From IMG/VR virus record IMGVR_UViG_3300031722_000011, positions 1-64,000 of that record: a DNA stretch of 64,000 nt; one strand, given 5' to 3'. Positions 14,139 through 49,374 of this stretch are shown piece after piece. Source of the DNA: a virus. The notes beneath the pieces were generated by a model, which made no database searches, was not told where the DNA came from, and worked only from the letters and a program-made list of their open reading frames with translations. The position numbers were made by a program, and so were the translations under genes. Each line of letters starts with the position of its first letter. Position 1 is the stretch's first letter.

Positions 14139-14256
14139 TAGGGATAAATTTTGAGGTCGCTCCTCATTATTGATAAGGCTATTTTATCAATCGGTAGCTT
14201 TCCCTACTTGCAATAGATTGGTAAATAAATTAAAATATAAGGAGATTGATAAAATG
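14139..14256 (+). ncRNA. cloverleaf leader RNA (c4/CI-like), copy 1
   Basis: outer stem TAGGGA/TCCCTA, hairpin TGAGG-TCGCT-CCTCA, hairpin GCTAT-loop-GTAGC; loop TTTATCAATC complementary to 14216-14225 and 14244-14253. Confidence 0.65.
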
Positions 14257-15165
14257 ATAGGAATTTACAAAATTACAAATAAGATTAACGGGAGAGCGTA
14301 CATAGGACAAAGTAAGAATATAGGAACACGATGGAGCAATCATATAAACAGACTTGAATGTAAAAAACACGAAAACAAAGAACTGCAAAAGGGTTTTAAT
14401 AATTTTGGATACTTTAATTTCTCCTTTGAAATTATCGAAGAGTGTCAAGAAAAAGAATTATTATCTGTGGAACTAAAATATATTAACCTTTATCAAGGCA
14501 ATAGTTATAATATAACAAGTAATTCTAATAGTACTCTTTATGTTGATAATTTTAAATTTAATAAACATATAAATATTAATTTAAATTATAATATTTTATC
14601 TCAAAGAGTAATTTTAACAGCATTAAAGAAATATTATGAAAGAAATACTAAAGAAATAAATATAGCATGTAGTGATATAATGAAAGAATATGATTTTGAT
14701 CACTCGATATATTATAAAGGTATTCAAAGAATATATGATGAAATATCGCATTGTGAATTATTTGAACAAGTATTAATTGAAAATTCATCTATTTTTAATT
14801 TGAAATTTAATGAGCAATATTACTTTTTAGCTAAATTGTTTTATGATAATAATATAATAGACAGTACAAAGAATTTTATAAGACGTGGTTCGTTGAATTT
14901 ATATGTAAAGATATTATGTAATAAGTTAAAGTTATATTATCATTTGGAAGATTTTAAAAGAGAATACAATATAAATGAATTACCTTCATATAAACATTTT
15001 TCAAACATTAAAAGAATATTATTAATACCAATGATTGAAGAAATAGAACTAGTATTAAATAAAAATATAATTATCGATGAACAAAAAGAAAGAGGAAAGA
15101 TTGTAGGATTTAATATTATTACATCAAATACTCTACAAGAAACGCATTCTATACCCTCAAATTAA
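14254..15165 (+). CDS. GIY-YIG endonuclease fused to a Rep_3-like winged-helix region
   Basis: MIGIYKITNKING..YIGQS..RW..H; C-terminal EDFKREY..SYKHFSNIKRILLIPMIEEI..KERGKIVGFNI resembles initiator WH2. Confidence 0.75.
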   Translation: MIGIYKITNKINGRAYIGQSKNIGTRWSNHINRLECKKHENKELQKGFNNFGYFNFSFEIIEECQEKELLSVELKYINLYQGNSYNITSNSNSTLYVDNFKFNKHININLNYNILSQRVILTALKKYYERNTKEINIACSDIMKEYDFDHSIYYKGIQRIYDEISHCELFEQVLIENSSIFNLKFNEQYYFLAKLFYDNNIIDSTKNFIRRGSLNLYVKILCNKLKLYYHLEDFKREYNINELPSYKHFSNIKRILLIPMIEEIELVLNKNIIIDEQKERGKIVGFNIITSNTLQETHSIPSN

Positions 15166-16660: not shown

Positions 16661-17545
16661 ATGAATAAAACAGAATACAAATTACATTATAATAATTTTG
16701 AAGAATTAAAAGTAAAAGGTGTTTATTTGATAAAGAATAAAGATAATGATAAATTAAAAATAGGTATAACCAATAATTTAATGAGAAGGTTAAGTGAAAT
16801 AAAAAAGAGTTTTCAATTTTGTGGAGTAATTCCAGAGTTAGATATAGAATGTTATATTGAATATAAACATAATCTAGAATTAGAACAATATTTACATAAA
16901 GAATTAAAGGAATATAATTATCAGAATGAATGGTTTAGTATTGATAATATAGATATAGTATTAGAAAAATTAAATGATTTTAAATATGAAAAAGAACTCA
17001 AAGAAATTAAACCATTAATTAAAGAAAATTTTAATATACCTGAAGAAAATAATATAGATAAATTTATGGTAAAATCAATGAAATACTATTTATATAACCA
17101 TTATGAGTGGCATGACTGTAAGAATTATACAAGATATAGTATTTATATAAAATGTAATGGAGACGAGTGGACGGCATGTAGTATGATAGATGATATACAA
17201 GGAGATATATTTCATGATTGGAATTATTTCACGCATTGTTATGAAAAAGAACGTTATAATAAATTTGATGCTAGTGATGAATTAATAGATAAATTCAAAG
17301 AGTTAAATACTAACGCAATAATAAAAACAGAAAATGGAAATATAAATAGTTTAGAAGATCACTTTATACAAAAGTATAATAATTATTTATCAAATACATT
17401 AACCGATATTAAAGATTATATAAATAATACAGACGTTGAAATAGAGAATACATATGATATATCATTGAAAAGAGTTAAATTAGAAGAAAAAATTGAATAT
17501 CTAATTAATAGAATGAAAACCATTAAAGAAAACTTAAGCATGTAA
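16661..17545 (+). CDS. T5orf172/GIY-YIG-like nuclease domain protein
   Basis: GVYLI..KIGIT..RRL..LEQYLH..NEWF. Confidence 0.8.
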   Translation: MNKTEYKLHYNNFEELKVKGVYLIKNKDNDKLKIGITNNLMRRLSEIKKSFQFCGVIPELDIECYIEYKHNLELEQYLHKELKEYNYQNEWFSIDNIDIVLEKLNDFKYEKELKEIKPLIKENFNIPEENNIDKFMVKSMKYYLYNHYEWHDCKNYTRYSIYIKCNGDEWTACSMIDDIQGDIFHDWNYFTHCYEKERYNKFDASDELIDKFKELNTNAIIKTENGNINSLEDHFIQKYNNYLSNTLTDIKDYINNTDVEIENTYDISLKRVKLEEKIEYLINRMKTIKENLSM

Positions 17546-19161: not shown

Positions 19162-21952
19162 ATGTCTAAACAATTATCTAATCAGAAGAATATACTTAAA
19201 ATACATACAAAAAGACTAAGAAAAAATAATTGGAGTTTAGACTTAGCATTGGAAGAAGCTAAAAAAAATAAAGAAGTTATTCAACTAGGAGATAGCCAAA
19301 CTCTAAGATTTATTAATGAAATATTGGAAATAGAAAATCAAGATGAACAAATTAACAAAATAAAAGAAGAAATAAAGGAACTTGAAAAATTAGATAACTC
19401 CATAGAAAATAGAAAAAAAATAAAAGAATTAAATAAAAAGAAAAATGGATTGAAATTTAATCAAGATTATTTATGTTTGGTTATAGATAAAATTGGAGAT
19501 TTTGATAAATGTAATAGAAGATGTAGTTTCTTTGTAAATGGGAAACAATTTGTAAGATTATTAGGAACTACAGGTGGAATAAAAAACGAAACTATAGTAT
19601 ACGTTAGTAGAGATGTATTTGACCAATTACATAAAAAATTGGATAATGGTAGAGATTTAGATAAACCTTTAGTTCCAGCTAAATTAGAAGCATATAAAGC
19701 ATTATCTTGTAGTATGAGTGTTCCAGTTAGAGATCCAAAAAGCATATTGGTAGTAGATGATTGCATAACTCATTTCAAAGAAGATATAATACAAATAGAT
19801 GATTCTAAAGGAGAAAGACCAGTTTTAGAAATAATAAAAGATTTTGATGTTGAATTAATTGATAGTGATGGTTATGGTCTTATATCTCCACAATTAAGTA
19901 AGTTATGGGGAGTAGATATTAAAGAATGTGAATTAAAAGACAAATTTGTACCAACAGGTTTTTGTATTAGAAATGCTTTTACTAAGGGAATGGTTTTTAC
20001 ATTTGATTTTAAGAGATTTGCAAAACAAATAGCACATAAAAAAATAGTTAAAGATGTGTGGGGGCAAGAGAGAAATATAAATAAAGTTGATTTAATATTA
20101 ACTACTTCCATGCTTAAATTATGGGACAGTTATGAATCATTAGAACACTATTTAGCTTGTTGCAAAGAAAATGAATGGACTTTTAGTATTACAAAAATGT
20201 GTCCAAAAGAATTAGAAAATGAAAGAACATTAAATTATCAATTTTTACAGTCTTTTAAACTTAATGATGAAGATATTAAAGAATTAATTAAACCAACTGT
20301 AGATAGTATCAAAGACAGTTTAACAATGGACTATGCAAAAACATTACTATTCCTAAAGGGAACTAAATTGAATGATAAAAACTCATTTGTTGGAGAAGAT
20401 GATTATGTTAAAGCGTTAATGGTTGATGAAGAATTATTAAATGATCCTTATATACAAGATAGAGTATATAATATGCGAAAGAAACGTATTCAAGATGCAA
20501 AAGTTGGTGTTTTAAATATGCAAGGATGCTATGCTATAATATCTGGCGACCCCTATTCACTATGTCAAAGTATATTTGGTTTAGATGTAACAGGATTACT
20601 AAAAGCCGATGAATTATATAGTAAATATTGGTCAGATAAGAACAGTAAAGAAATAATAGCTTTTAGAGCACCTATGACATGTCATAATAATATAAGAAAA
20701 TTACAAGTAACATCTACAGAAGAAATGCAACAATGGTATAAGTATATGAAAACATGCTTGATACTAAATTCATGGGACACCACAACTCATGCTGAGAACG
20801 GTGCCTGACAAAGATTCAGATGCATTTATTACCACAGATAATCCAGTTCTATTGAGAACGTATGAAAAATTGTTGGCTATATTTTGTGTTCAAAAATCAG
20901 CACAAAAAATTAAAGTCACTGAAAAAAGTCTTATTAAAGCAAACAAAGATGGTTTCGGAGATGATATAGGTACAACTACAAATAGAATAACTGAAATGTT
21001 TGATATATTAGCTAAGTTTAAAGAAGACTCATTAGAATATAAGGAATTAATGTATCGTATAATGTGTGGACAACATTATCAACAATGTGCGATAGATAAA
21101 ATCAAGGGCATAAAATCTAATCCTATGCCTAAAGAATGGTATGATTCAAGAGTAAATAGGATTAAAGTAGATACTAATACAGGAGAAATATTGGATAATG
21201 AAGAAATTATAAAATTAAAAGAGTTTAATACAAAAATTGTAGCTGATAAAAAACCATATTTCTTTATATACATATATCCTCAATTAAAAAATTCATATGA
21301 TAAATTTATAAAAGAAACTGAAAATAAATGTATTACTCAGTTTGGAATTTCATTAAATGAATTATTCAAAAAGAAGAATAAAAATGAGATAGAAGAAAGT
21401 TTCATAAAATATTACAACTTAAAAAATCCAGTTAGTAATAATAATTGTGTAATGAATAAAATATGCAGAGAAATAGAAAGAGAGTTTAAAGGAATTAAAA
21501 ACAAATTAAACAAAACAAAGTTTGATTATACTGTTTTAAAAACAGATGAAAAATACACAAAGAATACTTATAATAAAATAAAAATCATATATGAAGAATA
21601 CATGATTGAGTTGTCACAATTTAAAATGTTGTCTAAAAAGAATAGAGTAGGTAAAGAAGATAAAAACGATGGAATGATAATATTAAAACAAAACTTCAAA
21701 GAAAAATGTCAAGAAGAATGTATTAATAAAGATGAACTTTGCAATATATTAGTTGATATGTGTTATAATACTGAAAAATCTAAACAATTCGTTTGGGATA
21801 TGTGTGGTAATCAAATAATAAATAATTTATTACATAAAAATAATTTCATTATTAACTATCCTGAATTAGATAATATTAATGGAGATGTAGAATTTGGTGG
21901 AGAAAACTTTATTCTAAATACTATTGAAATAAAGAAAGGAGAAGATAAATAA
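19162..21952 (+). CDS. yonO: YonO-like single-subunit (RdRP-related) RNA polymerase, split by a +1 frameshift at 20803-20809
   Basis: DSDGYGLIS, FCIRNAFTKG, AFRAP motifs; ORF1 ends HAENGA* and the +1 frame continues DKDSDAF, rebuilding NGADKDSD; later IDKIKG; HU and morphogenesis genes follow as in SPbeta. Confidence 0.85.
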
Positions 21953-22740
21953 TGAAATTAGAATTAAATGAAAATAGTAAAATAAAAACAATATTAGAAG
22001 AAGGTATAGTATCAGATAAACCAAGTGAAACTATTAACTTATTGGCTAGACATTATAATAAGCAGAGTATGAATCAAGAGCAAATAGTACAAGCAATAAA
22101 TAAATTTATGATAAAAAATGATTCTAGTAAGTATAATAGTGTTACTTGGGAAGATTTAGTCGAAGGAATAGTAAAGACAGTTATAAAAAATAATAATGAT
22201 TTAATAGAGGTAAAAGAAGTTAAGATGACTAAATCAGAAATAGAATATATTAAATCATTAGAAAACGAGAAAATGCAAAAATTAATCTTTACATATTTAG
22301 TGTATGCTAAAATATTCAATCAAATAAATTCTAAAAATAAGAATTGGGTTAAAGGAGAATGTAGGAATGAAGTATTTAAAGACGCAGATATAAAAGAGAC
22401 TGGGAAGGAACAATTAAAAACAATACATAAGTTAGTTAGTCTTGAAGTATTAAAGATAGCTAAAAATATAACAAATAATAGTGTTAATTTAGATAATGTA
22501 ATTAATGATAATAGTGAAGCAGAGTTAATAATAAACGATTTTAGAGAATTAGGATTACAATGGCTTAGATATATAGGTATAAAAGGTGTGTGTAGTTGTA
22601 GTGAATGTGGAACGCTATTTAAAAAGAAGTCTCCTAATAGTAAACAAAAAGTTTGCAACATATGTGCAAAAAATATAAAGAATGAACAGAATAAAGGTTA
22701 TTATCATAATTTAGGAAAATGTAAAACAACGTCTAAGTAA
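21952..22740 (+). CDS. hypothetical protein with C-terminal Zn ribbon, coupled to the RNAP gene
   Basis: TAATG overlap; CSECG..VCNIC. Confidence 0.75.
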   Translation: MKLELNENSKIKTILEEGIVSDKPSETINLLARHYNKQSMNQEQIVQAINKFMIKNDSSKYNSVTWEDLVEGIVKTVIKNNNDLIEVKEVKMTKSEIEYIKSLENEKMQKLIFTYLVYAKIFNQINSKNKNWVKGECRNEVFKDADIKETGKEQLKTIHKLVSLEVLKIAKNITNNSVNLDNVINDNSEAELIINDFRELGLQWLRYIGIKGVCSCSECGTLFKKKSPNSKQKVCNICAKNIKNEQNKGYYHNLGKCKTTSK

Positions 22741-23050: not shown

Positions 23051-23608
23051 ATGTATTGCAAAATATGTAAGAAAGAAAAATTAGAACAAAAATTTTACAA
23101 AGGATTTAAAGAATGTAAAGATTGTTTAGAAGAGCATCTAAATAAATTACCTAATACCGTAGCTTATGAAAAAGTAAAAGATTTATTACAAAATAATAAC
23201 TATGTTGTTAATGAAGAATTGTTACATAGTATTTTCTTTAGCGATGAAGATACTATAAGAGGAAAAAATAATATTGGTAGATTAGGTCATTATTTAAAGG
23301 ATATAAATAGTCTTCCACAATATAATAAATATAGAATTAAAGTTGTTGAAAAATCAGATATAGACTTTATAAATGATGATATTAAACAATTAAAGAAGAA
23401 TATAGAAAATGCAATTCAAAAAGAAGATTTCAATGCACATAATAAATGGATGAACTGTTTAAGAGATGCTATTGAGTTGAGAGAAACATTACTAGGAGGT
23501 AGTAAATATACTATTAATCTAGGTACAATTAATGTTAATAGTAGTAGTGCTGAAGATCTTATGAATGAAATAATAAAATTAGCAGAAAAGAAAGTAAAAT
23601 GTAATTAG
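23051..23608 (+). CDS. Zn-finger protein, N-terminus paralogous to 36077-37117
   Basis: YCKICKKEK..KFYK..CKDC; GHYLKDI. Confidence 0.7.
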   Translation: MYCKICKKEKLEQKFYKGFKECKDCLEEHLNKLPNTVAYEKVKDLLQNNNYVVNEELLHSIFFSDEDTIRGKNNIGRLGHYLKDINSLPQYNKYRIKVVEKSDIDFINDDIKQLKKNIENAIQKEDFNAHNKWMNCLRDAIELRETLLGGSKYTINLGTINVNSSSAEDLMNEIIKLAEKKVKCN

Positions 23609-23677
23609 TAATTAAAACACGTTAAAATGTTTTAAAATATATTTTAGGTGGCGACTGACGCTAAGGAGATAATAAAT

Positions 23678-24202
23678 ATGACAAATCAATTTTTAGAAAA
23701 CGAGAAAATATCTTTAGAAGATAAAATTACAAAAGCTAGAGAAGGTAATAATGAAAATACATACAAGAATTTAATTCAAGCTTATGAAAGAGTTTTAGAA
23801 TTGATTAGAAAAGAAAATGTATGGACAGATATGTATTCACATTATAAATTGAAAATTGAAGATGAGTTTCAAGACGTAGTATCTACGTGGAAGCAAAAGG
23901 GTGAAGACATCAAAGACCATAAGATTTATAAAATTGAAAAAGAAATAACAAATGATAATGAAAAAATAGGTATAGCATTAAAAAGTATGTTTGAAAAATA
24001 TCAAAGTAATGAAACTAAAAAAGCAATTGAATCTATAATAAAACGTAAAATAGATGAAGATGAAAGTTTTTATGATGTATTAAAATCTTTATCAAATGAA
24101 TGGGATGATTTTACTGAAAACAATAAGAAAAATATTAGTAGAACAATTGCAGGAATAAGAAATGAAGATTGCTTTAAAGCATTATTAGATAATTTAAAAT
24201 AA
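23678..24202 (+). CDS. hypothetical protein with a tape-measure-like C-terminal segment
   Basis: AAGGAG RBS; C-terminal WDDFTENNKKNISRTIAGIRNEDCFKALLDN. Confidence 0.65.
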   Translation: MTNQFLENEKISLEDKITKAREGNNENTYKNLIQAYERVLELIRKENVWTDMYSHYKLKIEDEFQDVVSTWKQKGEDIKDHKIYKIEKEITNDNEKIGIALKSMFEKYQSNETKKAIESIIKRKIDEDESFYDVLKSLSNEWDDFTENNKKNISRTIAGIRNEDCFKALLDNLK

Positions 24203-24308
24203 AATATAACTTTTAAGATAATAAATTAATGTATAAACAAATAGTAAATATCCCTATTAAGGGTTATAAAATAAATTAAATTAGAGAGAAGAAAGAGGAG
24301 ATTAAAAA

Positions 24309-24638
24309 ATGAGTAAAGTAAAAACAATTAAAAAGGACGAAATTTTAACAATTATTAAAGATGTATATGGATTCTCTACAAAGAAAGAAGCTGAAACTAG
24401 ATTTTGTGATTTGGATTCTTTAATAGAAGTTATTTCAAGTAATTTAAATGCTGGAGAAAAGGTTAATATAGGAAAGTATTTAGTTTTAGAAAAGAAGCAT
24501 GTGGAAGCTAAACCATCTAAGAACGGAGAAATGACTAGAGTAATTGATGGAGTTAATACAAAAGTACCTTATACTACAGAAGCTAAACCAGAACACGATG
24601 AAGTTAGACTAAAATCAACCAAACAGTTAAATAAATAA
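24309..24638 (+). CDS. HU-like DNA-binding protein
   Basis: KDEIL..TKKEAE..LNAGEKVNIG..beta arm..VRLKSTKQL; syntenic with SPbeta yonN. Confidence 0.75.
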   Translation: MSKVKTIKKDEILTIIKDVYGFSTKKEAETRFCDLDSLIEVISSNLNAGEKVNIGKYLVLEKKHVEAKPSKNGEMTRVIDGVNTKVPYTTEAKPEHDEVRLKSTKQLNK

Positions 24639-24786: not shown

Positions 24787-26268
24787 ATGGGAGGAAAAAA
24801 GAATAAAGAAAATGAAATTGTAATAAGTTTAAATGGAAATCAATCACAAGAAGTAGTAGGCAGTAATATGAGCATTTCATATTTATCAGATACAGGTAGA
24901 AAATGTGTTTTAGTTGAATTAGGAATGATACAAAATAATGATATGGCTGACGAATATATACTAAATAAGGAAATGTTAAATAATATTCCTATTAAAGAGT
25001 CAGATTATTGTTTTATGTTTCATTTACATTGTGACCATATTGGGCTGTTCCCGTCGCTATCTTCAATGGGATTTAAAGGCAGGATAATAACAACAAAAAC
25101 CAATGCAATATTATCTAAACCAATGTTAAAAGATTGCATTAAGATTCATGTAAAAAATTGTGAGTATTTAAGGGAGAATAAAGATAAATTTAAAAAGAAA
25201 ATAAAAGGAAAAGTTAAAGAATTATTTGAAGAAAAAGACTTAGATAATGTAATGAGTATGATGGACGTTTATGAATTAGATAACATACATCATTTAGATG
25301 ATTATTTATCTTTTAGATTTACAAATAACTCACATATTATTGGTGCTACACAATTAGAGATTTTCATAAAGAAATTTGGAACAAATGTTGTAAAAAAGAT
25401 TTGTATTACAAGTGACTTAGGAAATACAGATAATTATTCATATACATATTTTACAGAACCAACAATTCCAGTGTCTAGTTCAAATATTCTTTTCGTAGAA
25501 AGTACATATGGATTAGGAGATAGAAATTTCAACAAGAGAATTTGTATAGAAGAAAGAAAACAATTGGAAAAAGATATATTAGGATTTGTTAATTACAATC
25601 ATTCATGTATGATACCATGTTTTGCTTTATCTAGGCTTAGCAATATGATGTGTTGGCTCTATGATACATTTAAAGATAGATGGGACATGTCTAAGCCAAT
25701 TGTAATAGCAACTAATCTAGGTAAAAAAATAAATGATAAAATGTATGAAGTTTTGGATAATGAAGACTTGGCTTATTGGGATGAAGTTATGACTTGGAAA
25801 GCTTTTAAATTCATAAATGACAACAAGAGTTGTGAAGCGTTTGTTAATTCTAAACCAAAAAGCTATTTAGTTTTAAGTTCTAGTGGGATGATTTCGGGTG
25901 GGTTTAGTAATCTATTTGTTAATCAAATGTTACAAGATTCTCATAATGGAATATTATTTTGTGGATACTGCTCGCCAAATACAATAGGTGGTCAATTATT
26001 AGATGATAGTACAGATACAGTTATTGTTGATGGCAAGACATTAAAAAAGAGATGTATTGTGAAAAGATATTATTCATTTAGTAGCCATGCATCACAAAAA
26101 GATATTATAAATTATATCAAACAATGTGATTGTCAAAAAGTAATATTACAACATGGTTCAAATGATGCAAAAGAAGAATTAAAGAAATTATCTGAAATAG
26201 AATTAAGCAAAATGAACAGAACAACAAAAGTTATTTCATCGTATAAGGATATGCAAATGACTTTATAA
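24787..26268 (+). CDS. MBL-fold beta-CASP metallo-hydrolase (probable RNase)
   Basis: HLHCDHIG, SHIIGA, TSDLG, VESTYG, SSSGM, FSSHA, QHG. Confidence 0.9.
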   Translation: MGGKKNKENEIVISLNGNQSQEVVGSNMSISYLSDTGRKCVLVELGMIQNNDMADEYILNKEMLNNIPIKESDYCFMFHLHCDHIGLFPSLSSMGFKGRIITTKTNAILSKPMLKDCIKIHVKNCEYLRENKDKFKKKIKGKVKELFEEKDLDNVMSMMDVYELDNIHHLDDYLSFRFTNNSHIIGATQLEIFIKKFGTNVVKKICITSDLGNTDNYSYTYFTEPTIPVSSSNILFVESTYGLGDRNFNKRICIEERKQLEKDILGFVNYNHSCMIPCFALSRLSNMMCWLYDTFKDRWDMSKPIVIATNLGKKINDKMYEVLDNEDLAYWDEVMTWKAFKFINDNKSCEAFVNSKPKSYLVLSSSGMISGGFSNLFVNQMLQDSHNGILFCGYCSPNTIGGQLLDDSTDTVIVDGKTLKKRCIVKRYYSFSSHASQKDIINYIKQCDCQKVILQHGSNDAKEELKKLSEIELSKMNRTTKVISSYKDMQMTL

Positions 26269-26699: not shown

Positions 26700-26815
26700 A
26701 GTAGAGACAAATTAAGGAGTCATGACCTTAATTAAAATAGCTTATCTCAATCGGCTATGTCTCTATTTTATTAATGATTGAGAAATAAATTATAGAAAGA
26801 AGATTGAGAAAAATG
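26700..26815 (+). ncRNA. cloverleaf leader RNA (c4/CI-like), copy 2
   Basis: outer stem AGTAGAGACA/TGTCTCTATT, hairpin AATTAAGG/CCTTAATT, hairpin ATAGCT-TATCTCAATC-GGCTAT; targets GATTGAGA at 26776 and 26802. Confidence 0.7.
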
Positions 26816-28243
26816 AAAAAGATAAGTAGAAAAATAATTTTAGATAATTTACCTAGAATTAAAGAAAATAGAAATAAAGAACGTATAGATTGGAGAAATT
26901 CGATTGGATATACAATAAATTTTATATATGCTGAGGTAGAAGGTTCAGTTTATATAAAACAATATAATAATGACAAAAGAGATTTGGTTATTGTATATAA
27001 AGGAGAAGATTTTCATATTACATGTGATAACCTTGCAAAATGTGCTTTTGGAAAAATTTTAGGATTAATGACAAAAAACTTTAAAGTTGAAATAGGTACA
27101 AGATTTAAAGATAATAAAAGAGATATAACCATAACAGACAGAGAATATAGAAAAGATAAAAGGGGACAAAATTGGAAATGGTATAAATACACTTGCAACA
27201 CATGTAACTGGACAGAAGGTTGGGTTGAAGAAGGAAATTTGCAAAGAGGTGATAATTGTTCTTGTTGTCGTGGTCTTGTTGTTATAGAAGGAATAAACGA
27301 TATACCTACAACTGCTCCTTGGTTAATTCCTTATTTTCAAGGTGGTTATAATGAGGCTAAATTGTACACTAAATGGGGAACTGGAAACTCCAATAATTTT
27401 GGAGGTTATATAAATCCTGTTTGTCCAGATTGTATAAGAATCAAAGATAAAAAAATTAAAATTAGAGATATATATACAAATAAATCAATAGGATGTATCT
27501 GTAGTGATGGTCAGAGTTTTCCTAATAAGACAATGTTTAATATTTTAGAACAATTAGGAATAGATTTTATACCAGAATACAATCCAGAATGGATTAAACC
27601 TAAACGTTATGATTTTTATATACCTTCAATAAATAAAATAATAGAAATGGATGGACAATTTCATAAAAATAACAATCAAATGAATGGACAAACTTCCAAA
27701 GAAAGTAATGAGTTAGATGAGTATAAAGATAATTTAGCAAGAGAACGTGATATAGAGGTTATTAGAATTGATTGTGATTATCCTAACATGGAAACTAGAT
27801 TTGAATATATAAAAAATAATGTAATTCATAATAGTAGATTAAATAATCTATTTGATTTGAGTAAAATAGACTGGTTTAAATGTAACGAATTTGCTTTAAG
27901 TAATCTAGTTAAAGTAGCTTGTGACTTATGGAATAAAGGAATATATAGTATAAAAGGAATATCTAGTATTATGCATATAAATGTTACAACAACTAGAACT
28001 TATTTAAAGAATGGAACAGAAAATAGTTGGTGCAATTACAATGGTGAAAAAGAACAAAATAAAAATATTAAACAAATGGCAAGTAAAATATCTAAACCCA
28101 TAAAATGTTTAACTGATAATAAATCATTTAAAAGTATAGTTGAAGCATCAAAATATTATAATATGGGAGAATCAACTATAAGCATGGTTTGTGGTGGGAA
28201 AAGAAAAACTGCGAAAGGTATGGTCTTTGAATATGAAATGTGA
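26813..28243 (+). CDS. free-standing endonuclease: Zn ribbons, Vsr/DUF559-like nuclease, NUMOD1-like tail
   Basis: CxxC pairs; RYDFYIP..IIEMDGQFH; C-terminal FKSIVEAS..ISMVCGGKRKTAKGMVF. Confidence 0.8.
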   Translation: MKKISRKIILDNLPRIKENRNKERIDWRNSIGYTINFIYAEVEGSVYIKQYNNDKRDLVIVYKGEDFHITCDNLAKCAFGKILGLMTKNFKVEIGTRFKDNKRDITITDREYRKDKRGQNWKWYKYTCNTCNWTEGWVEEGNLQRGDNCSCCRGLVVIEGINDIPTTAPWLIPYFQGGYNEAKLYTKWGTGNSNNFGGYINPVCPDCIRIKDKKIKIRDIYTNKSIGCICSDGQSFPNKTMFNILEQLGIDFIPEYNPEWIKPKRYDFYIPSINKIIEMDGQFHKNNNQMNGQTSKESNELDEYKDNLARERDIEVIRIDCDYPNMETRFEYIKNNVIHNSRLNNLFDLSKIDWFKCNEFALSNLVKVACDLWNKGIYSIKGISSIMHINVTTTRTYLKNGTENSWCNYNGEKEQNKNIKQMASKISKPIKCLTDNKSFKSIVEASKYYNMGESTISMVCGGKRKTAKGMVFEYEM

Positions 28244-28358
28244 TTTATGTCAACATCAAAGAGTATGTTGGATGTATAAAGACCATATTAGTAAAATAGT
28301 AGACGGTGGAATTCAAATAACTATAGATAAATGTAGAGAATTTGATGAAGTTAGATAA
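28233..28358 (+). CDS. small Cys-rich protein (41 aa, MKCDLCQHQRVC...KCREF)
   Basis: CxxCxHxxVC..C pattern; overlaps the endonuclease stop; followed by a terminator-like hairpin. Confidence 0.55.
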   Translation: MKCDLCQHQRVCWMYKDHISKIVDGGIQITIDKCREFDEVR

Positions 28359-28387
28359 GGCATATACTCGTTGAGATATGACCTTTT

Positions 28388-28743
28388 ATATGGGTGGATA
28401 GTGGAGTGATTAAAACAACTAATTTATTAGGAAATTAAGAATCGTGTATTGGTAATACAAATCGAATAAGAATAGCTTCGATTTCCGAGCTATCGGACAT
28501 TAATATATAGCATTTGACCTAGTTAGGGTATGGATACTAATCTGCTATTCAAGGCGTTATTCGGATTATCGTCTTTAGTTATGTTTTTACATATGCTAAA
28601 AATCCGATACCAAAAGACCTCACAAGGCTATGACTTTTCACTTGATGTTTGTCGGGCTAAAGTTATCCTCAAATAGTGCCAATTATTTATGATGATGAAG
28701 TACAAGTCATTATAATATCACGTAGGCTAGTGGTTATCCATAT
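28388..28743 (+). ncRNA. unidentified large structured RNA (~355 nt)
   Basis: ORF-free, higher GC than flanks, closing stem 28388-28397/28734-28743 and many internal helices with G-U pairs that favour the + strand. Confidence 0.65.
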
Positions 28744-28848
28744 GGGCGTGAAAATAATAAATATTTATAATAAAGATAATCCTTGAACGTTGATGATAAT
28801 GTGCAAGGTATTTTTTAATGAATATTTAAAAAGATGGAGAGATATGAG

Positions 28849-29049
28849 ATGGGAGAAAAAGAATACAATCAACAAAGAGAATCTAAGAAACATAAAAGAA
28901 GAGTACAAAAAGTTATATGTCCTAATGCAGAATGCAAGGCTAAAATTATAGTTGAAGATGAAATAGAAAATGGCAATTTTAGTGAAATATCAGGAGTTAA
29001 ATTTATTGAGTGTCCGTCATGTGGACAAGACATTATAATTAAGAAATAA
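28849..29049 (+). CDS. small Zn-ribbon protein
   Basis: CPNAEC..ECPSCG. Confidence 0.7.
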   Translation: MGEKEYNQQRESKKHKRRVQKVICPNAECKAKIIVEDEIENGNFSEISGVKFIECPSCGQDIIIKK

Positions 29050-29074
29050 AATAGTAATATGGGAGAGAATTATT

Positions 29075-30307
29075 ATGGAAGAAAGGTATTTAAAATTAGA
29101 AGATGAGAGTAGAGAAAAATATATACATAGAATGTATTCTAATAAGGTTCAAAATAATTTAACAAATAGTCAAGTAAGAGAAATTGTAAATGAAGTATTA
29201 GATGTATCATGGCAAGAGAGCTATATGCGTGGTATTTTTAAAAACTATGAAATTGGATATTCTGAAGCATTGGAATCTTTAAAGAGTGAAAAAGAATGTA
29301 AAAACAAAATAGATGAAGTTGCAGAATTAATTGGTGAATTAGATTTAAAAAAGATGTTAGTTAGAAACGATACAACTAAGCTTAATAAAATTAAAAGAGA
29401 TTTTGTTAAAAATATTGAAATAGCAAATTACATAAATGAGTACATAGATAGAGAATGCGAAAACTTTTTGCCTTTATCTTATAAAAGAATAGAGAATGAA
29501 TCAGAAAAAACATTAATAGTTGGAATTTCAGACTGGCATGTAGGATATGTAATTAAGGATTATAAAGGCAATAGTTATAATTATGAAATTGCTAAAAAGA
29601 GATTAGCTAAATTCTTATCTGAAATTAAAAAGGAAATACATAAGAATGATATAACTAAGGTAATTGTAGTGCAAGCTGGAGATTTAACAGAAGGAATTTA
29701 TATGCGTGGGCAAGATCAATCATACAGTTGTGAATTTAATAGTAATGAACAAATAGTTATGGCTGAAGAATTATTATATGGCTTTGTTACAAGTATATCT
29801 GAAATGAAGGTAAATGTAGATTTATATTCAGTCGGTGGCAATCATCAAAGAGGAAACCAAGCTAACAAAGATTCCAATATTGAAGGAGATAACAATAACT
29901 TAGTGATAGTTAAGAATCTAAAGAAGTGGTTTACTTTAGCTAAAAATGATAGAGTAAATGTTTGTGATATTGATTTTAAAGAAGATTGTGGAGAATTTGA
30001 TTTAGGATTTGGAATTATTAAAGTCAAACATGGCGACAAGAGTCCTAAAAAAGATAAAGATTTTTATAATAGTGAAGTTAGTATGAATAATACAAGATAC
30101 TCAATGTTAATTAGGGGACACTATCATAATTTCAATATGAGTTCTCAAAATATGGGTGCATATGTGGTGACAATAGGTTCATTATTCGGATTTAATCCTT
30201 ATAGCGTAGATAAAGTTCAATGTACAACACATGCGAGTCAATCTCTAATTGTAGTTAACTATGATGGAGTTGAATATATCAGAGATATAAATTTACAAAT
30301 AAATTAA
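29075..30307 (+). CDS. calcineurin-like metallophosphoesterase
   Basis: SDWH, GD, GNH, HGD, GHYH motifs. Confidence 0.9.
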   Translation: MEERYLKLEDESREKYIHRMYSNKVQNNLTNSQVREIVNEVLDVSWQESYMRGIFKNYEIGYSEALESLKSEKECKNKIDEVAELIGELDLKKMLVRNDTTKLNKIKRDFVKNIEIANYINEYIDRECENFLPLSYKRIENESEKTLIVGISDWHVGYVIKDYKGNSYNYEIAKKRLAKFLSEIKKEIHKNDITKVIVVQAGDLTEGIYMRGQDQSYSCEFNSNEQIVMAEELLYGFVTSISEMKVNVDLYSVGGNHQRGNQANKDSNIEGDNNNLVIVKNLKKWFTLAKNDRVNVCDIDFKEDCGEFDLGFGIIKVKHGDKSPKKDKDFYNSEVSMNNTRYSMLIRGHYHNFNMSSQNMGAYVVTIGSLFGFNPYSVDKVQCTTHASQSLIVVNYDGVEYIRDINLQIN

Positions 30308-48123: not shown

Positions 48124-49227
48124 ATGATAGCAAATTCAAATTTACTTGGTAGAATGGCAATTATAGGTGGTGCAGACGCATACATATATAGTGCTAAAAC
48201 AAAAGCATTAGAAACAATTTTTGAAAATTGCAATAATTTAGAATTAACAGCAAAGGGGGATAAAGTAGACATCAAAGAAAAAGGTGCTATAGTTATGTCT
48301 GTAGCAAAACCAATGTCTTGTACATTAAAATTCACAGCAGAAACAACTTCTTTTGATAAGGTTGCTATGGCATTAGGTAGTGCTGGATTTACAAAAACTA
48401 CAACACTTGATACTTATCAAAAAAATGAAATGTTTAGAGTTACAGATACTGCTTCAATGGTGTTTAATTTAAAAGGAGTTGCAGAAACTCTAGATAATGT
48501 GGTTAATGTACATTTAGTTACTGAAGATGGAGAAAAAGCAAAAGTATTAGCATTTACATTAGATACTACAAAGAGAATAGTTACAGTAACAGCAGACTCA
48601 GATATTGCAGTAGGAGACTACATACGAATCAATTACAATTCTGTTGTTGCAAGTGGTAAAATGTATCAATTTAAAGTACCAAGTAAAAGTAACACAGACG
48701 CAAAGAGAGTTGTTATAGATGCAATTGGATTAAGAAAATTAGACAAATCTCAAATATTAATGCAATTTGAATTCTATAAAGTTGCAGTTGAAGAAGGTAT
48801 TACATTGTCATTTGATGGAGAAAAAGCTACATCATTTGATATAAGTATGACTGTTTTAGCTGATAATACAAAATTAACAGATATAGAAGGAAGTCAATTC
48901 TTTAGACAAATGGTATTAACAGATGATGCTAATGCTATTTCTAATTTAGCAGGAACTTCATCTGTTGCAGGTAAAGTAGCATTAACATTTAATGCACCAA
49001 CAGGGGCAACATCTGTTGATTTACAATATAAACTTTCAAGTGGTTCAACTTGGGCTTCAGTAGCTACTAGTGGAACAACTGGAGTTTATATAAGTGGAGC
49101 TTTAACTAGTGTATCAACAGGAACTACAGTTAATGGATTAACAACAACAAGTCCATATGACTTTAAAGTAATTGTTACTGATGGTTCTTATGAAGGAACT
49201 TCAAATATCATAACAGTTACGCCCTAA
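48124..49227 (+). CDS. major tail (tube) protein with FN3-like C-terminal domain; ends CCC TAA
   Basis: position; VNGLTTTSPYDFKVIV FN3-like; +1-frame extension to 49285. Confidence 0.75.
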   Translation: MIANSNLLGRMAIIGGADAYIYSAKTKALETIFENCNNLELTAKGDKVDIKEKGAIVMSVAKPMSCTLKFTAETTSFDKVAMALGSAGFTKTTTLDTYQKNEMFRVTDTASMVFNLKGVAETLDNVVNVHLVTEDGEKAKVLAFTLDTTKRIVTVTADSDIAVGDYIRINYNSVVASGKMYQFKVPSKSNTDAKRVVIDAIGLRKLDKSQILMQFEFYKVAVEEGITLSFDGEKATSFDISMTVLADNTKLTDIEGSQFFRQMVLTDDANAISNLAGTSSVAGKVALTFNAPTGATSVDLQYKLSSGSTWASVATSGTTGVYISGALTSVSTGTTVNGLTTTSPYDFKVIVTDGSYEGTSNIITVTP

Positions 49228-49374
49228 TGGAGCTAGTTCTTCACGAATTGGGACTGGCGAAATAGGTTTTGCAATCGTAGGATAAAATATAATATTAAGA
49301 ATGGACATCTATACGGTGTCCATCTATTAGTATTATAGAGAATTAATAAATTAAACCTAAAGGAGAATAAAACA

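What the first reader, a model, noticed from the sequence alone, without database searches (positions are those of the whole stretch)
20791..20830. YonO-like RNA polymerase broken by one extra base exactly at its catalytic aspartate motif (GGT GCC TGA C AAA GAT TCA GAT)
Seen: ORF1 ends NGA-stop and the +1 frame resumes D-K-D-S-D, so skipping one nucleotide rebuilds NGADKDSD. Both halves are otherwise open over ~930 codons, with no intron or intein present. Known: YonO/RdRP-type polymerases use a DxDGD metal-binding motif (DKDSD here), and prfB frameshifts +1 at CUU UGA C, the same weak UGA-C stop context. Inference: either a recoding switch gating the late-gene polymerase, a recent inactivating mutation, or a sequencing indel. 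GCC re-pairs poorly in the +1 frame, so simple tRNA slippage is not an obvious mechanism.
Basis: partly seen in the sequence, partly recalled or inferred. Interest (0 to 1): 0.75.

Follow-up and report, generated by a model that had tools for sequence, protein, structure and literature searches.

The report
Conserved +1 frameshift in phage RNA polymerase
A phage gene for a YonO-type RNA polymerase has one extra base just before its catalytic aspartates, and because diverged relatives keep the same break while both halves stay under strong selection, the full enzyme is most likely made by ribosomes shifting +1 at GCC-UGA-C.

Summary
ORF1 (19162-20808) ends ...HAENGA-TGA. The +1 frame continues DKDSDAF... 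from 20807 to 21952. Skipping one base gives a 929-aa protein colinear with intact ~920-aa homologues.

It is not a private error or a dead gene:
- The exact ORF1 and ORF2 proteins occur on 11 and 18 contigs from three assembly sources.
- Six distinct ORF1/ORF2 pairs, down to 78%/70% identity, have the same arrangement. Reading both overlapping frames fixes their DNA as CATGCTGAGAACGG[T/A]GCCTGA.
- dN/dS against an intact relative is 0.08 (N half) and 0.12 (C half).
- The frameshifted forms keep 66-67 of 67 family-conserved columns downstream of the break.
- ORF2 has no ribosome-binding site.
- GCC is a rare codon here, and GCCTGA occurs once in 103 kb.

Best reading (about 0.6): a +1 ribosomal frameshift at a shifty stop, GCC_UGA_C, closest to yeast antizyme GCG_UGA_C and prfB CUU_UGA_C. 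No stimulatory element was found. No reads, RNA or protein data could be obtained. DNA of the other frameshifted lineages was inferred only from their proteins.

Relatives such as Clostridium phage c-st carry probable group I introns 9 nt downstream, so the extra base might also protect against intron homing. That idea is untested.

The scan had noted such introns on other DNA before, but not this frameshift.

The parts
19162..20808 (+). ORF1 (zero frame), 548 aa. N-terminal 60% of a YonO/RdRP-type two-barrel RNA polymerase. Ends ...SWDTTTHAENGA then TGA.
   Evidence: Pfam RdRP PF05183 at 38.2 bits (cut-off 23.8). phrog_25339 at E 3e-207. Strong Shine-Dalgarno before ATG 19162 (-11.6 kcal/mol).
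20803..20809 (+). Proposed +1 shift site GCC_UGA_C: rare Ala codon in the P site, UGA in the A site, then C. After the shift GAC (Asp, first of the triad) is read.
   Evidence: GCCTGA occurs once in the 103-kb genome. GCC is 47 of 892 Ala codons. TGA ends 5 of 58 ORFs, TGAC once. The same GCC TGA is fixed in all frameshifted relatives by two-frame reading.
20807..21952 (+). ORF2 coding part (+1 frame), 381 aa. Begins with the catalytic loop DKDSD (20807-20821) and carries the rest of the polymerase.
   Evidence: phrog_35857 at E 3e-78. dN/dS 0.115 against L004. 67 of 67 family-conserved columns kept.
20789..20791 (+). ATG in the +1 frame that gene callers use as the ORF2 start. Probably a by-product of the His-Ala codons CAT GCT, not a real start.
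   Evidence: No Shine-Dalgarno (-3.9 kcal/mol against -8 to -15 for real genes). The same +1-frame ATG is present in 72 of 98 mostly intact homologous loci.
21952..22740 (+). ORF3, 262 aa. A separate coupled gene with its own Shine-Dalgarno and a C-terminal Cys cluster (CxCxxC...CxxC). It is the conserved partner of this polymerase type, homologous to c-st CST177.
   Evidence: (phrog_30716). c-st annotation.

Best explanation
The gene encodes a single-chain two-barrel (YonO/QDE-1-type) RNA polymerase whose full-length form needs a +1 ribosomal frameshift at GCC_UGA_C (20803-20809). Proposed mechanism (inferred): the ribosome holds peptidyl-tRNA-Ala on the rare codon GCC and meets UGA followed by C, a context known from prfB as a poor terminator. 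While release by RF2 is slow, the frame moves one base forward and GAC is read as the first catalytic Asp. This could happen by slippage of tRNA-Ala onto CCU (two of three pairs) or by out-of-frame binding of Asp-tRNA, as proposed for Ty3 and antizyme. The result is ...ENGA-DKDSD..., a 929-aa enzyme. Ribosomes that terminate release a 548-aa product without the Asp triad. Shown: the extra base is real, it is conserved in diverged lineages, both halves are under purifying selection, ORF2 has no ribosome-binding site, and the shift must occur at the last codon. Inferred: that the correction is ribosomal, that its direction is +1 rather than -2, its efficiency, and any regulatory use.
For: 1. Not an artefact. 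The exact ORF1 is on 11 contigs and the exact ORF2 on 18 contigs from JGI, ENA and Logan assemblies.

2. Conserved. Nine distinct ORF1 variants end HAENGA-stop at the same residue. Seven ORF2 variants begin MLRT[V/E]PDKDSD. Six pairs share a contig. The two overlapping frames determine the DNA uniquely as CATGCTGAGAACGG[T/A]GCCTGA[C/T]. The one difference, GGT to GGA, is synonymous in frame 0 and Val to Glu in frame +1, so frame 0 is the constrained frame up to the stop.

3. Old. The frameshifted forms fall in a 100/99-supported clade with two sub-clades only 78% (N half) and 70% (C half) identical. dS against the intact member is 1.4-1.7.

4. Functional. dN/dS is 0.084 (N half) and 0.115 (C half). 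The frameshifted proteins keep 66-67 of 67 columns that are at least 95% conserved in 40 intact homologues downstream of the break, while other columns are 65% identical.

5. ORF2 has no ribosome-binding site, unlike ORF1, ORF3 and most other tested starts, and its ATG is a by-product.

6. The +1 frame is open only from 20768, and the invariant W, D, T, N, G residues upstream must be read in frame 0. The shift is therefore confined to GCC/UGA.

7. GCC is rare (5% of Ala codons) yet retained in all frameshifted lineages. C-ending four-fold codons are retained in only 6 of 25 cases at this divergence. The intact relative uses GCT GAT.

8. Precedent. Yeast antizyme GCG_UGA_C has an intrinsic shiftiness of 37%, and Ty3 shifts +1 on an Ala codon without re-pairing (PMC5009743).

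9. The fused form is a contiguous QDE-1/RDR2-like fold (pLDDT 88.9; Foldseek E 8e-17 to 1e-13). The break lies in the loop before strand 547-554. The Asp triad is essential in YonO (PMC5467207).
Against: No stimulatory element was found. Folding up- and downstream is no better than shuffles (z -0.3 to -0.7). The only SD-like bases (GGUG or GGAG) abut the shift codon instead of lying 3 nt upstream as in prfB.

tRNA-Ala re-pairs on CCU at only two of three positions. GCC_UGA has no experimental record that I could find.

UGA is partly forced by the overlapping Asp codon (xGA), so only the T is free to vary.

DNA of the other frameshifted lineages was not seen directly. It was inferred from protein pairs.

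The retention statistics for GCC and the six upstream codons are weak (p about 0.03-0.2).

Host and host tRNA set are unknown.
Confidence: 0.62

Rival explanations
1. A true split enzyme. ORF1 and ORF2 are made as two polypeptides, with ORF2 started at AUG 20789 by termination-reinitiation after the UGA 17 nt downstream. They assemble non-covalently into an active polymerase whose catalytic loop is the N-terminus of the second chain.
For: An ATG is present in the +1 frame in every frameshifted lineague. Purifying selection on both halves fits this reading equally well. Phage and cellular two-barrel polymerases tolerate some natural splits (own knowledge; phiKZ-type polymerases in PMC2919709). 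ORF3 is already a separate coupled subunit.
Against: There is no Shine-Dalgarno before ATG 20789, whereas ORF1, ORF3 and most other tested starts have one. The ATG occurs in 72 of 98 mostly intact homologues as a by-product of the His/Asp-Ala codons. The break lies inside the catalytic barrel, between its strands. About 100 homologous loci are single-chain, or are interrupted at the motif by probable introns that splicing would rejoin. A split gene would have no reason to keep the rare GCC codon.
Confidence: 0.17
2. Another recoding route restores the frame: a host- or phage-encoded tRNA with an expanded anticodon loop reads a four-base codon (GCCU or UGAC), a -2 shift gives ...GA-P-DKD..., or the mRNA loses one base.
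For: The same comparative evidence applies: the frame must be restored somehow. The contig is only about 42% of the phage genome, so a phage tRNA could lie outside it.
Against: No tRNA gene was found in the 103 kb held. There is no homopolymer run for transcriptional slippage; the site has only CC and AAA. A -2 shift would insert a residue into an invariant loop. No base-deleting RNA editing is known in phages (own knowledge).
Confidence: 0.07
3. An inactivating mutation, with the polymerase gene decaying and the phage relying on host RNA polymerase.
For: A frameshift directly before the catalytic residues is what a knockout would look like. An intact allele exists in the same 90% cluster.
Against: ORF2 is open in all seven variants. 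dN/dS is 0.115, and 66-67 of 67 conserved columns are kept at 30% overall divergence. The frameshift is shared by sub-clades separated by saturated synonymous divergence.
Confidence: 0.03
4. A sequencing or assembly indel.
For: The window is a metagenome-assembled contig. Two unrelated low-coverage assemblies do show sporadic frameshifts elsewhere in this gene (L060 and L062).
Against: The same protein pair occurs on 11 to 18 contigs from three independent assembly sources, and in lineages 6-30% diverged. The site is not a homopolymer.
Confidence: 0.01

Closest known systems
YonO of Bacillus prophage SPbeta, a single-chain DNA-dependent RNA polymerase (Forrest et al. 2017, PMC5467207)
   Same: Homologous: the intact relative P0004 hits yonO at 24% identity, E 5e-23, across the motif. 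It has the Pfam RdRP domain, an invariant Asp triad, a two-barrel QDE-1/RDR2-like fold, and a phage context upstream of structural genes.
   Different: This clostridial-type enzyme is ~920 aa and comes with a separate 262-aa Cys-cluster partner gene. It is only distantly related to YonO, its loop is DKDSD, and in this clade the gene needs a frame change. YonO itself is a plain ORF.
prfB (release factor 2) programmed +1 frameshift, CUU_UGA_C
   Same: A zero-frame UGA followed by C directly after the shift codon. The +1 frame carries most of the protein. The site is conserved in evolution.
   Different: prfB has a CUU codon that re-pairs well as UUU, and a Shine-Dalgarno-like stimulator 3 nt upstream. 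Here the codon is GCC (two of three re-pairing) and no correctly spaced stimulator is present. No autoregulatory logic is evident.
Antizyme +1 frameshift (UCC_UGA_U; S. cerevisiae OAZ1 GCG_UGA_C) and Ty3 (GCG_AGU_U), reviewed in PMC5009743
   Same: An Ala (or Ser) NCN codon followed by UGA, then GAY read as Asp after skipping the U. OAZ1 differs from the window's site by one base (GCG against GCC). The shift occurs without standard re-pairing.
   Different: These are eukaryotic ribosomes and tRNAs, with polyamine sensing and nascent-peptide modulators. Nothing shows that a bacterial ribosome behaves the same way on GCC_UGA_C.
Phage +1 'shifty stop' sites in structural genes
   Same: Phages of a Gram-positive host with a +1 shift at a C-rich codon next to a stop. 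The same genome has a candidate CCC_TAA site at the end of its tail gene.
   Different: Those sites add a C-terminal extension to a fraction of a structural protein. Here the shift is obligatory for any active enzyme and lies at the catalytic centre.
Probable group I intron-split YonO-type genes (Clostridium phage c-st CST179/CST178; Enterocloster phage CB473P3; several metagenome loci)
   Same: The same gene family is interrupted at the same catalytic motif, and annotators call two genes.
   Different: Those have 0.29-1.08-kb inserts placed exactly after the second Asp codon. The 5' exon ends in T and the insert ends in G. The window has no insert, only one extra base 9 nt upstream of that insertion site.
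T4 gene 60 translational bypass and 'savior indels' (Bonocora et al. 2011, as cited in PMC5009743)
   Same: A small non-coding insertion in an essential phage enzyme gene is compensated during translation. In T4 the insert protects against a homing endonuclease.
   Different: That case is a 50-nt hop, not a 1-nt shift. Protection from an endonuclease is only a hypothesis here.

Membership tests
YonO/QDE-1-type single-chain two-barrel RNA polymerase (Pfam RdRP PF05183) | Significant match to the family profile | tested here: met
   ORF1 matches PF05183 at 38.2 bits against a cut-off of 23.8, ending right at the break. It also matches phrog_8308, an 847-position profile of unknown function that I assumed but did not check to be the YonO family. 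P0004 matches SPbeta yonO by tblastn at E 5e-23.
YonO/QDE-1-type single-chain two-barrel RNA polymerase (Pfam RdRP PF05183) | Invariant metal-binding Asp triad D-x-D-x-D after N-G | tested here: met
   Present as DKDSD at 20807-20821, but only in the +1 frame. N542, G543, D545, D547 and D549 are invariant in 42 homologues. The fourth position is G, S or A across the family.
YonO/QDE-1-type single-chain two-barrel RNA polymerase (Pfam RdRP PF05183) | Two double-psi beta-barrel fold like QDE-1/RDR2 | tested here: met
   The AlphaFold model of the intact 81%-identical relative has pLDDT 88.9 and pTM 0.80. Foldseek top hits are RDR2 7w82 (E 8e-17) and QDE-1 (E about 1e-13 to 1e-14), then phage polymerases 8f5m, 8f72 and 6vr4. 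This was tested on the relative, not on the window's own chain.
YonO/QDE-1-type single-chain two-barrel RNA polymerase (Pfam RdRP PF05183) | DNA-dependent RNA synthesis and transcription of late genes | not testable with these tools
   Needs biochemistry or genetics.
Programmed +1 ribosomal frameshift at a shifty stop (prfB/antizyme kind) | Zero-frame stop directly 3' of the shift codon, with the +1 ORF continuing the homologous protein | tested here: met
Programmed +1 ribosomal frameshift at a shifty stop (prfB/antizyme kind) | Shift site conserved among diverged lineages, with both ORFs under purifying selection | tested here: met
   (site). (selection). (tree). DNA of relatives was inferred from protein pairs.
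Programmed +1 ribosomal frameshift at a shifty stop (prfB/antizyme kind) | P-site tRNA can re-pair in the +1 frame | tested here: inconclusive
   GCC to CCU gives two of three pairs with a GGC or UGC anticodon (reasoned from the sequence). This is not required in Ty3 or antizyme (PMC5009743). The host tRNA set is unknown.
Programmed +1 ribosomal frameshift at a shifty stop (prfB/antizyme kind) | Stimulatory element (SD-like sequence 3 nt upstream as in prfB, or a 3' structure) | tested here: not met
   No structure better than shuffles. GGUG/GGAG abuts the shift codon with no spacer. Not every known +1 site has a stimulator.
Programmed +1 ribosomal frameshift at a shifty stop (prfB/antizyme kind) | Trans-frame protein actually made | not testable with these tools
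No proteomics was available.
Group I intron-interrupted YonO-type gene | An intervening sequence of a few hundred bases between the exons | tested here: not met
   The two reading-frame segments abut. There is no Rfam hit in the window. Inserts exist in L001, L002, L009, L018, L019 and L030 only.

The most novel reading that the evidence does not exclude
The extra base is a 'savior indel'. It shifts the spacing of the DNA target around the catalytic-motif codons, which in related phages is the homing site of probable group I introns inserted 9 nt downstream. It would thereby make this polymerase gene immune to intron or homing-endonuclease invasion, while a naturally shifty GCC_UGA_C lets ribosomes pay the cost. 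This would be a one-base counterpart of the T4 gene 60 bypass cassette. It would also establish a new bacterial +1 site that works on an Ala codon without re-pairing, and that could tie production of the late polymerase to RF2 activity.
Probability: 0.15. Interest if true: 0.85.

Novelty: new variant of a known kind. Interest (0 to 1): 0.62.

Why it matters
If confirmed, this would be a new natural +1 recoding site in bacteria and phages, GCC_UGA_C, with an Ala codon and no obvious stimulator. It is the first case I know of in a phage RNA polymerase, placed one codon before the catalytic aspartates.

It offers a simple test of whether bacterial ribosomes can shift +1 without P-site re-pairing, as Ty3 and antizyme do in yeast.

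It also shows that one short, invariant stretch of a gene can be interrupted in three ways in nature: intact, intron-bearing and frameshifted.

Practically, annotators split this gene into two 'hypothetical proteins', for example WP_346938155.1 and WP_346938156.1. It should be joined.

Tried and rejected

- IMG/VR by protein and by a degenerate junction pattern.
- The one metagenome scan (best 56% identity).
- The one genome scan (best 48%).
- Phage and plasmid collections (only c-st-like at 65%).

Other negative results:
- Rfam found nothing in the window, in the c-st insert, or in 28200-29100. The c-st-type inserts are called probable group I introns from their boundaries (5' exon ends in T, insert ends in G), their shared insertion site and earlier scan follow-ups, not from a model hit.
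- Sequence and profile searches of the PDB gave nothing. The fold search did.
The match exists, but 62% of 10-mers in this gene have such a partner in the window, so it is at chance level.
- Reading TGA as a sense codon was rejected: frame 0 stops 11 codons later at TAA.
- A phage frameshift-suppressor tRNA was rejected for the 103 kb held.
- A link between the frameshift and a neighbouring homing-endonuclease gene could not be shown. The 3 kb upstream of the intact relative's gene shares no detected genes with the window.
- Literature searches for YonO plus frameshift or intron, and for 'GCC UGA', returned nothing relevant.
Full report
**What is there.** The window is the first 64 kb of a 103-kb metagenomic virus contig with 27% G+C. 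At 20800-20821 the sequence reads GGT GCC TGA C AAA GAT TCA GAT. ORF1 (19162-20808, 548 aa) ends ...SWDTTTHAENGA-stop. The +1 frame is open from 20768 and runs to 21952. Reading GCCT as one step gives a single open 929-aa protein. ORF1 matches Pfam RdRP PF05183 above its cut-off, and that match stops at the break. PHROGs holds separate families for 'ORF1-like' (558 positions) and 'ORF2-like' (354 positions) proteins, which was the first sign that breaks at this spot recur.

**The gene family.** Thousands of homologues exist. Most are 900-935 aa and cover ORF1 plus ORF2 in one chain. The closest intact one, P0004 (81% identical in the N half; locus L004), reads ...THAENGADKDSDAFITTDN... This is exactly the window's sequence with one base skipped. 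Its DNA is GGA GCT GAT where the window has GGT GCC T GAC. In 42 homologues N, G and the three Asp are invariant, and the fourth motif position is G, S or A.
- P0004 hits SPbeta yonO by tblastn at 24% identity, E 5e-23, across the motif.
- Its AlphaFold model (pLDDT 88.9) matches RDR2 and QDE-1 over about 900 columns (E 8e-17 to 1e-13), followed by phage two-barrel polymerases.
- The break falls in the loop just before strand 547-554, inside the catalytic barrel.
- In YonO the Asp triad is essential, and the enzyme transcribes the late genes (PMC5467207).

A third gene, ORF3 (21952-22740), has its own Shine-Dalgarno and a C-terminal Cys cluster. It is conserved next to the polymerase in L004 and in phage c-st.

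**Not an error, not private.**
- The exact ORF1 protein is on 11 contigs and the exact ORF2 protein on 18 contigs, from JGI, ENA and Logan assemblies.
- Nine different ORF1 variants end HAENGA-stop. Seven ORF2 variants start MLRT[V/E]PDKDSD.
- Six pairs share a contig. One pair has adjacent RefSeq accessions, WP_346938155.1 and WP_346938156.1.
- ORF2's first six residues are the +1 reading of ORF1's last six codons, so the two proteins together fix the DNA uniquely as CATGCTGAGAACGG[T/A]GCCTGA[C/T].
- The single difference (GGT to GGA) is silent in frame 0 and changes Val to Glu in frame +1. Frame 0 is therefore the selected frame up to the stop.

**Age and selection.** In a maximum-likelihood tree of the N halves, the frameshifted forms lie in one clade with 100/99 support. 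That clade consists of the window's group (5 variants) plus a second group in which the intact pair P0004/P0253 is sister to four frameshifted variants. Every outgroup row in the tree is either intact or ends within the Asp motif. Where DNA could be read in other family members, such ends are 0.3-1.1-kb inserts; the DNA of these outgroup rows was not read. The frameshift therefore arose either once with one reversion, or twice. In both cases it has persisted through 22% (N half) and 30% (C half) protein divergence.
- Against L004, dS is saturated (1.4-1.7), with dN/dS 0.084 for the N half and 0.115 for the C half.
- Downstream of the break, the frameshifted proteins keep 66-67 of the 67 columns that are at least 95% conserved in 40 intact homologues, while the remaining columns are only 65% identical between the two sub-clades.
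- ORF2 is therefore expressed and functional in the frameshifted phages.

**How the frame is restored.**
- ORF2 has no ribosome-binding site: -3.9 kcal/mol against the anti-SD, compared with -11.6 for ORF1, -11.7 for ORF3 and -8 to -15 for most of the 36 starts tested.
- Its ATG is a by-product of the conserved His/Asp-Ala codons, and is present in 72 of 98 mostly intact homologous loci.
- The +1 frame opens only 13 codons before the stop. The invariant W, D, T, N, G residues must be read in frame 0, so the change of frame has to occur at GCC or UGA.
- There is no homopolymer for transcriptional slippage, no tRNA gene in the 103 kb, and no intervening sequence.
- The site combines a rare Ala codon (GCC, 5% of Ala codons), the rarest stop (TGA, 5 of 58 ORFs) and the following C. 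GCCTGA occurs once in the genome.
- The intact relative uses the common GCT GAT.
- GCC is kept in all frameshifted lineages, although C-ending four-fold codons survive in only 6 of 25 cases at this divergence. The six upstream codons being identical has p of about 0.03. These are weak statistics.

All of this fits a +1 'shifty stop'. The nearest precedent is yeast antizyme GCG_UGA_C (intrinsic shiftiness 37%) and Ty3, where an Ala-tRNA does not re-pair (PMC5009743). prfB shares the UGA-C context. Unlike prfB, no correctly spaced SD-like stimulator exists, and no RNA structure stands out.

**Rivals.** A split enzyme made by termination-reinitiation at the upstream AUG is possible. It is disfavoured by the missing ribosome-binding site, by the break lying inside the barrel, and by the lack of any reason to keep GCC. 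Four-base decoding, a -2 shift or RNA-level correction cannot be excluded without protein and cDNA data. Pseudogene and sequencing error are excluded for practical purposes.

**Context: a hot spot for interruptions.**
- In Clostridium phage c-st (L001), Enterocloster phage CB473P3 (L002) and four metagenome or virus loci (L009, L018, L019, L030), the same gene carries 286-1077-nt inserts placed exactly after the second Asp codon.
- In each, the 5' exon ends in T, the insert ends in G, and the insert ends are similar. Two of them carry a ~222-aa ORF.
- These look like one family of group I introns, although Rfam does not score them. Earlier follow-ups in this scan reached the same view on other DNA.
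- The window's extra base lies 9 nt upstream of that insertion site.
- This suggests, without testing it, that the indel may protect the site from intron homing, with frameshifting as the compensation, as argued for the T4 gene 60 insert (PMC5009743).

**Limits.** The host is unknown; relatives are labelled Clostridium or Sarcina. The mechanism, its efficiency and any regulatory role are inferences.

**Verdict.** This is a new, conserved instance and variant of +1 shifty-stop frameshifting, in a gene family and at a position where it had not been described.

Noticed in passing
L001:4672-4988 (Clostridium phage c-st); also L002:2345-2777, L009:4919-5204, L018:1559-2616, L019:3270-4346, L030:5611-5963: Inserts of 0.29-1.08 kb sit exactly after the second Asp codon of the DxD|GD motif in YonO-type genes. 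The 5' exon ends in T and the insert ends in G. L018 and L019 carry a ~222-aa ORF. They are probable group I introns, are not scored by Rfam, and the genes are annotated as two separate genes (CST179/CST178).
   Followed up: partly
window 49219-49285: The tail-gene ORF 48124-49227 ends ACG CCC TAA. The +1 frame continues for 19 codons (NGASSSRIGTGEIGFAIVG) to TAA.
   Followed up: partly
window 21952-22740: A 262-aa gene translationally coupled to the polymerase (ATG overlaps the ORF2 stop, strong SD) with a C-terminal CxCxxC...CxxC cluster. It is conserved in L004 and c-st (CST177, annotated there as 'YonO C-ter'). It is a likely partner or specificity subunit.
   Followed up: partly
window 14170-15165, 16661-17545, 26804-28243: There are three homing-endonuclease-type genes within 14 kb: GIY-YIG, T5orf172/MUG113, and HNH with an I-HmuI-like NUMOD domain. 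The genome is rich in mobile endonucleases.
   Followed up: no
window 28244-29074: An 830-nt gap without an ORF lies between the HNH endonuclease gene and an exonuclease gene. No Rfam match at E up to 1. The 10-nt antisense match of 28648-28657 to the shift site is at chance level.
   Followed up: partly
window 24787-26268: A beta-CASP/RMMBL metallo-beta-lactamase-fold nuclease gene. It follows the polymerase module directly in L004, but in the window it is separated from it by three small ORFs (23051-24638).
   Followed up: no
L060:6920-6926 and L062:6983-7031: Sporadic frameshifts occur elsewhere in the same gene in two human-gut assemblies with coverage of only 1.4x and 2.0x. They are probably assembly errors and are a useful contrast to the conserved site.
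   Followed up: no
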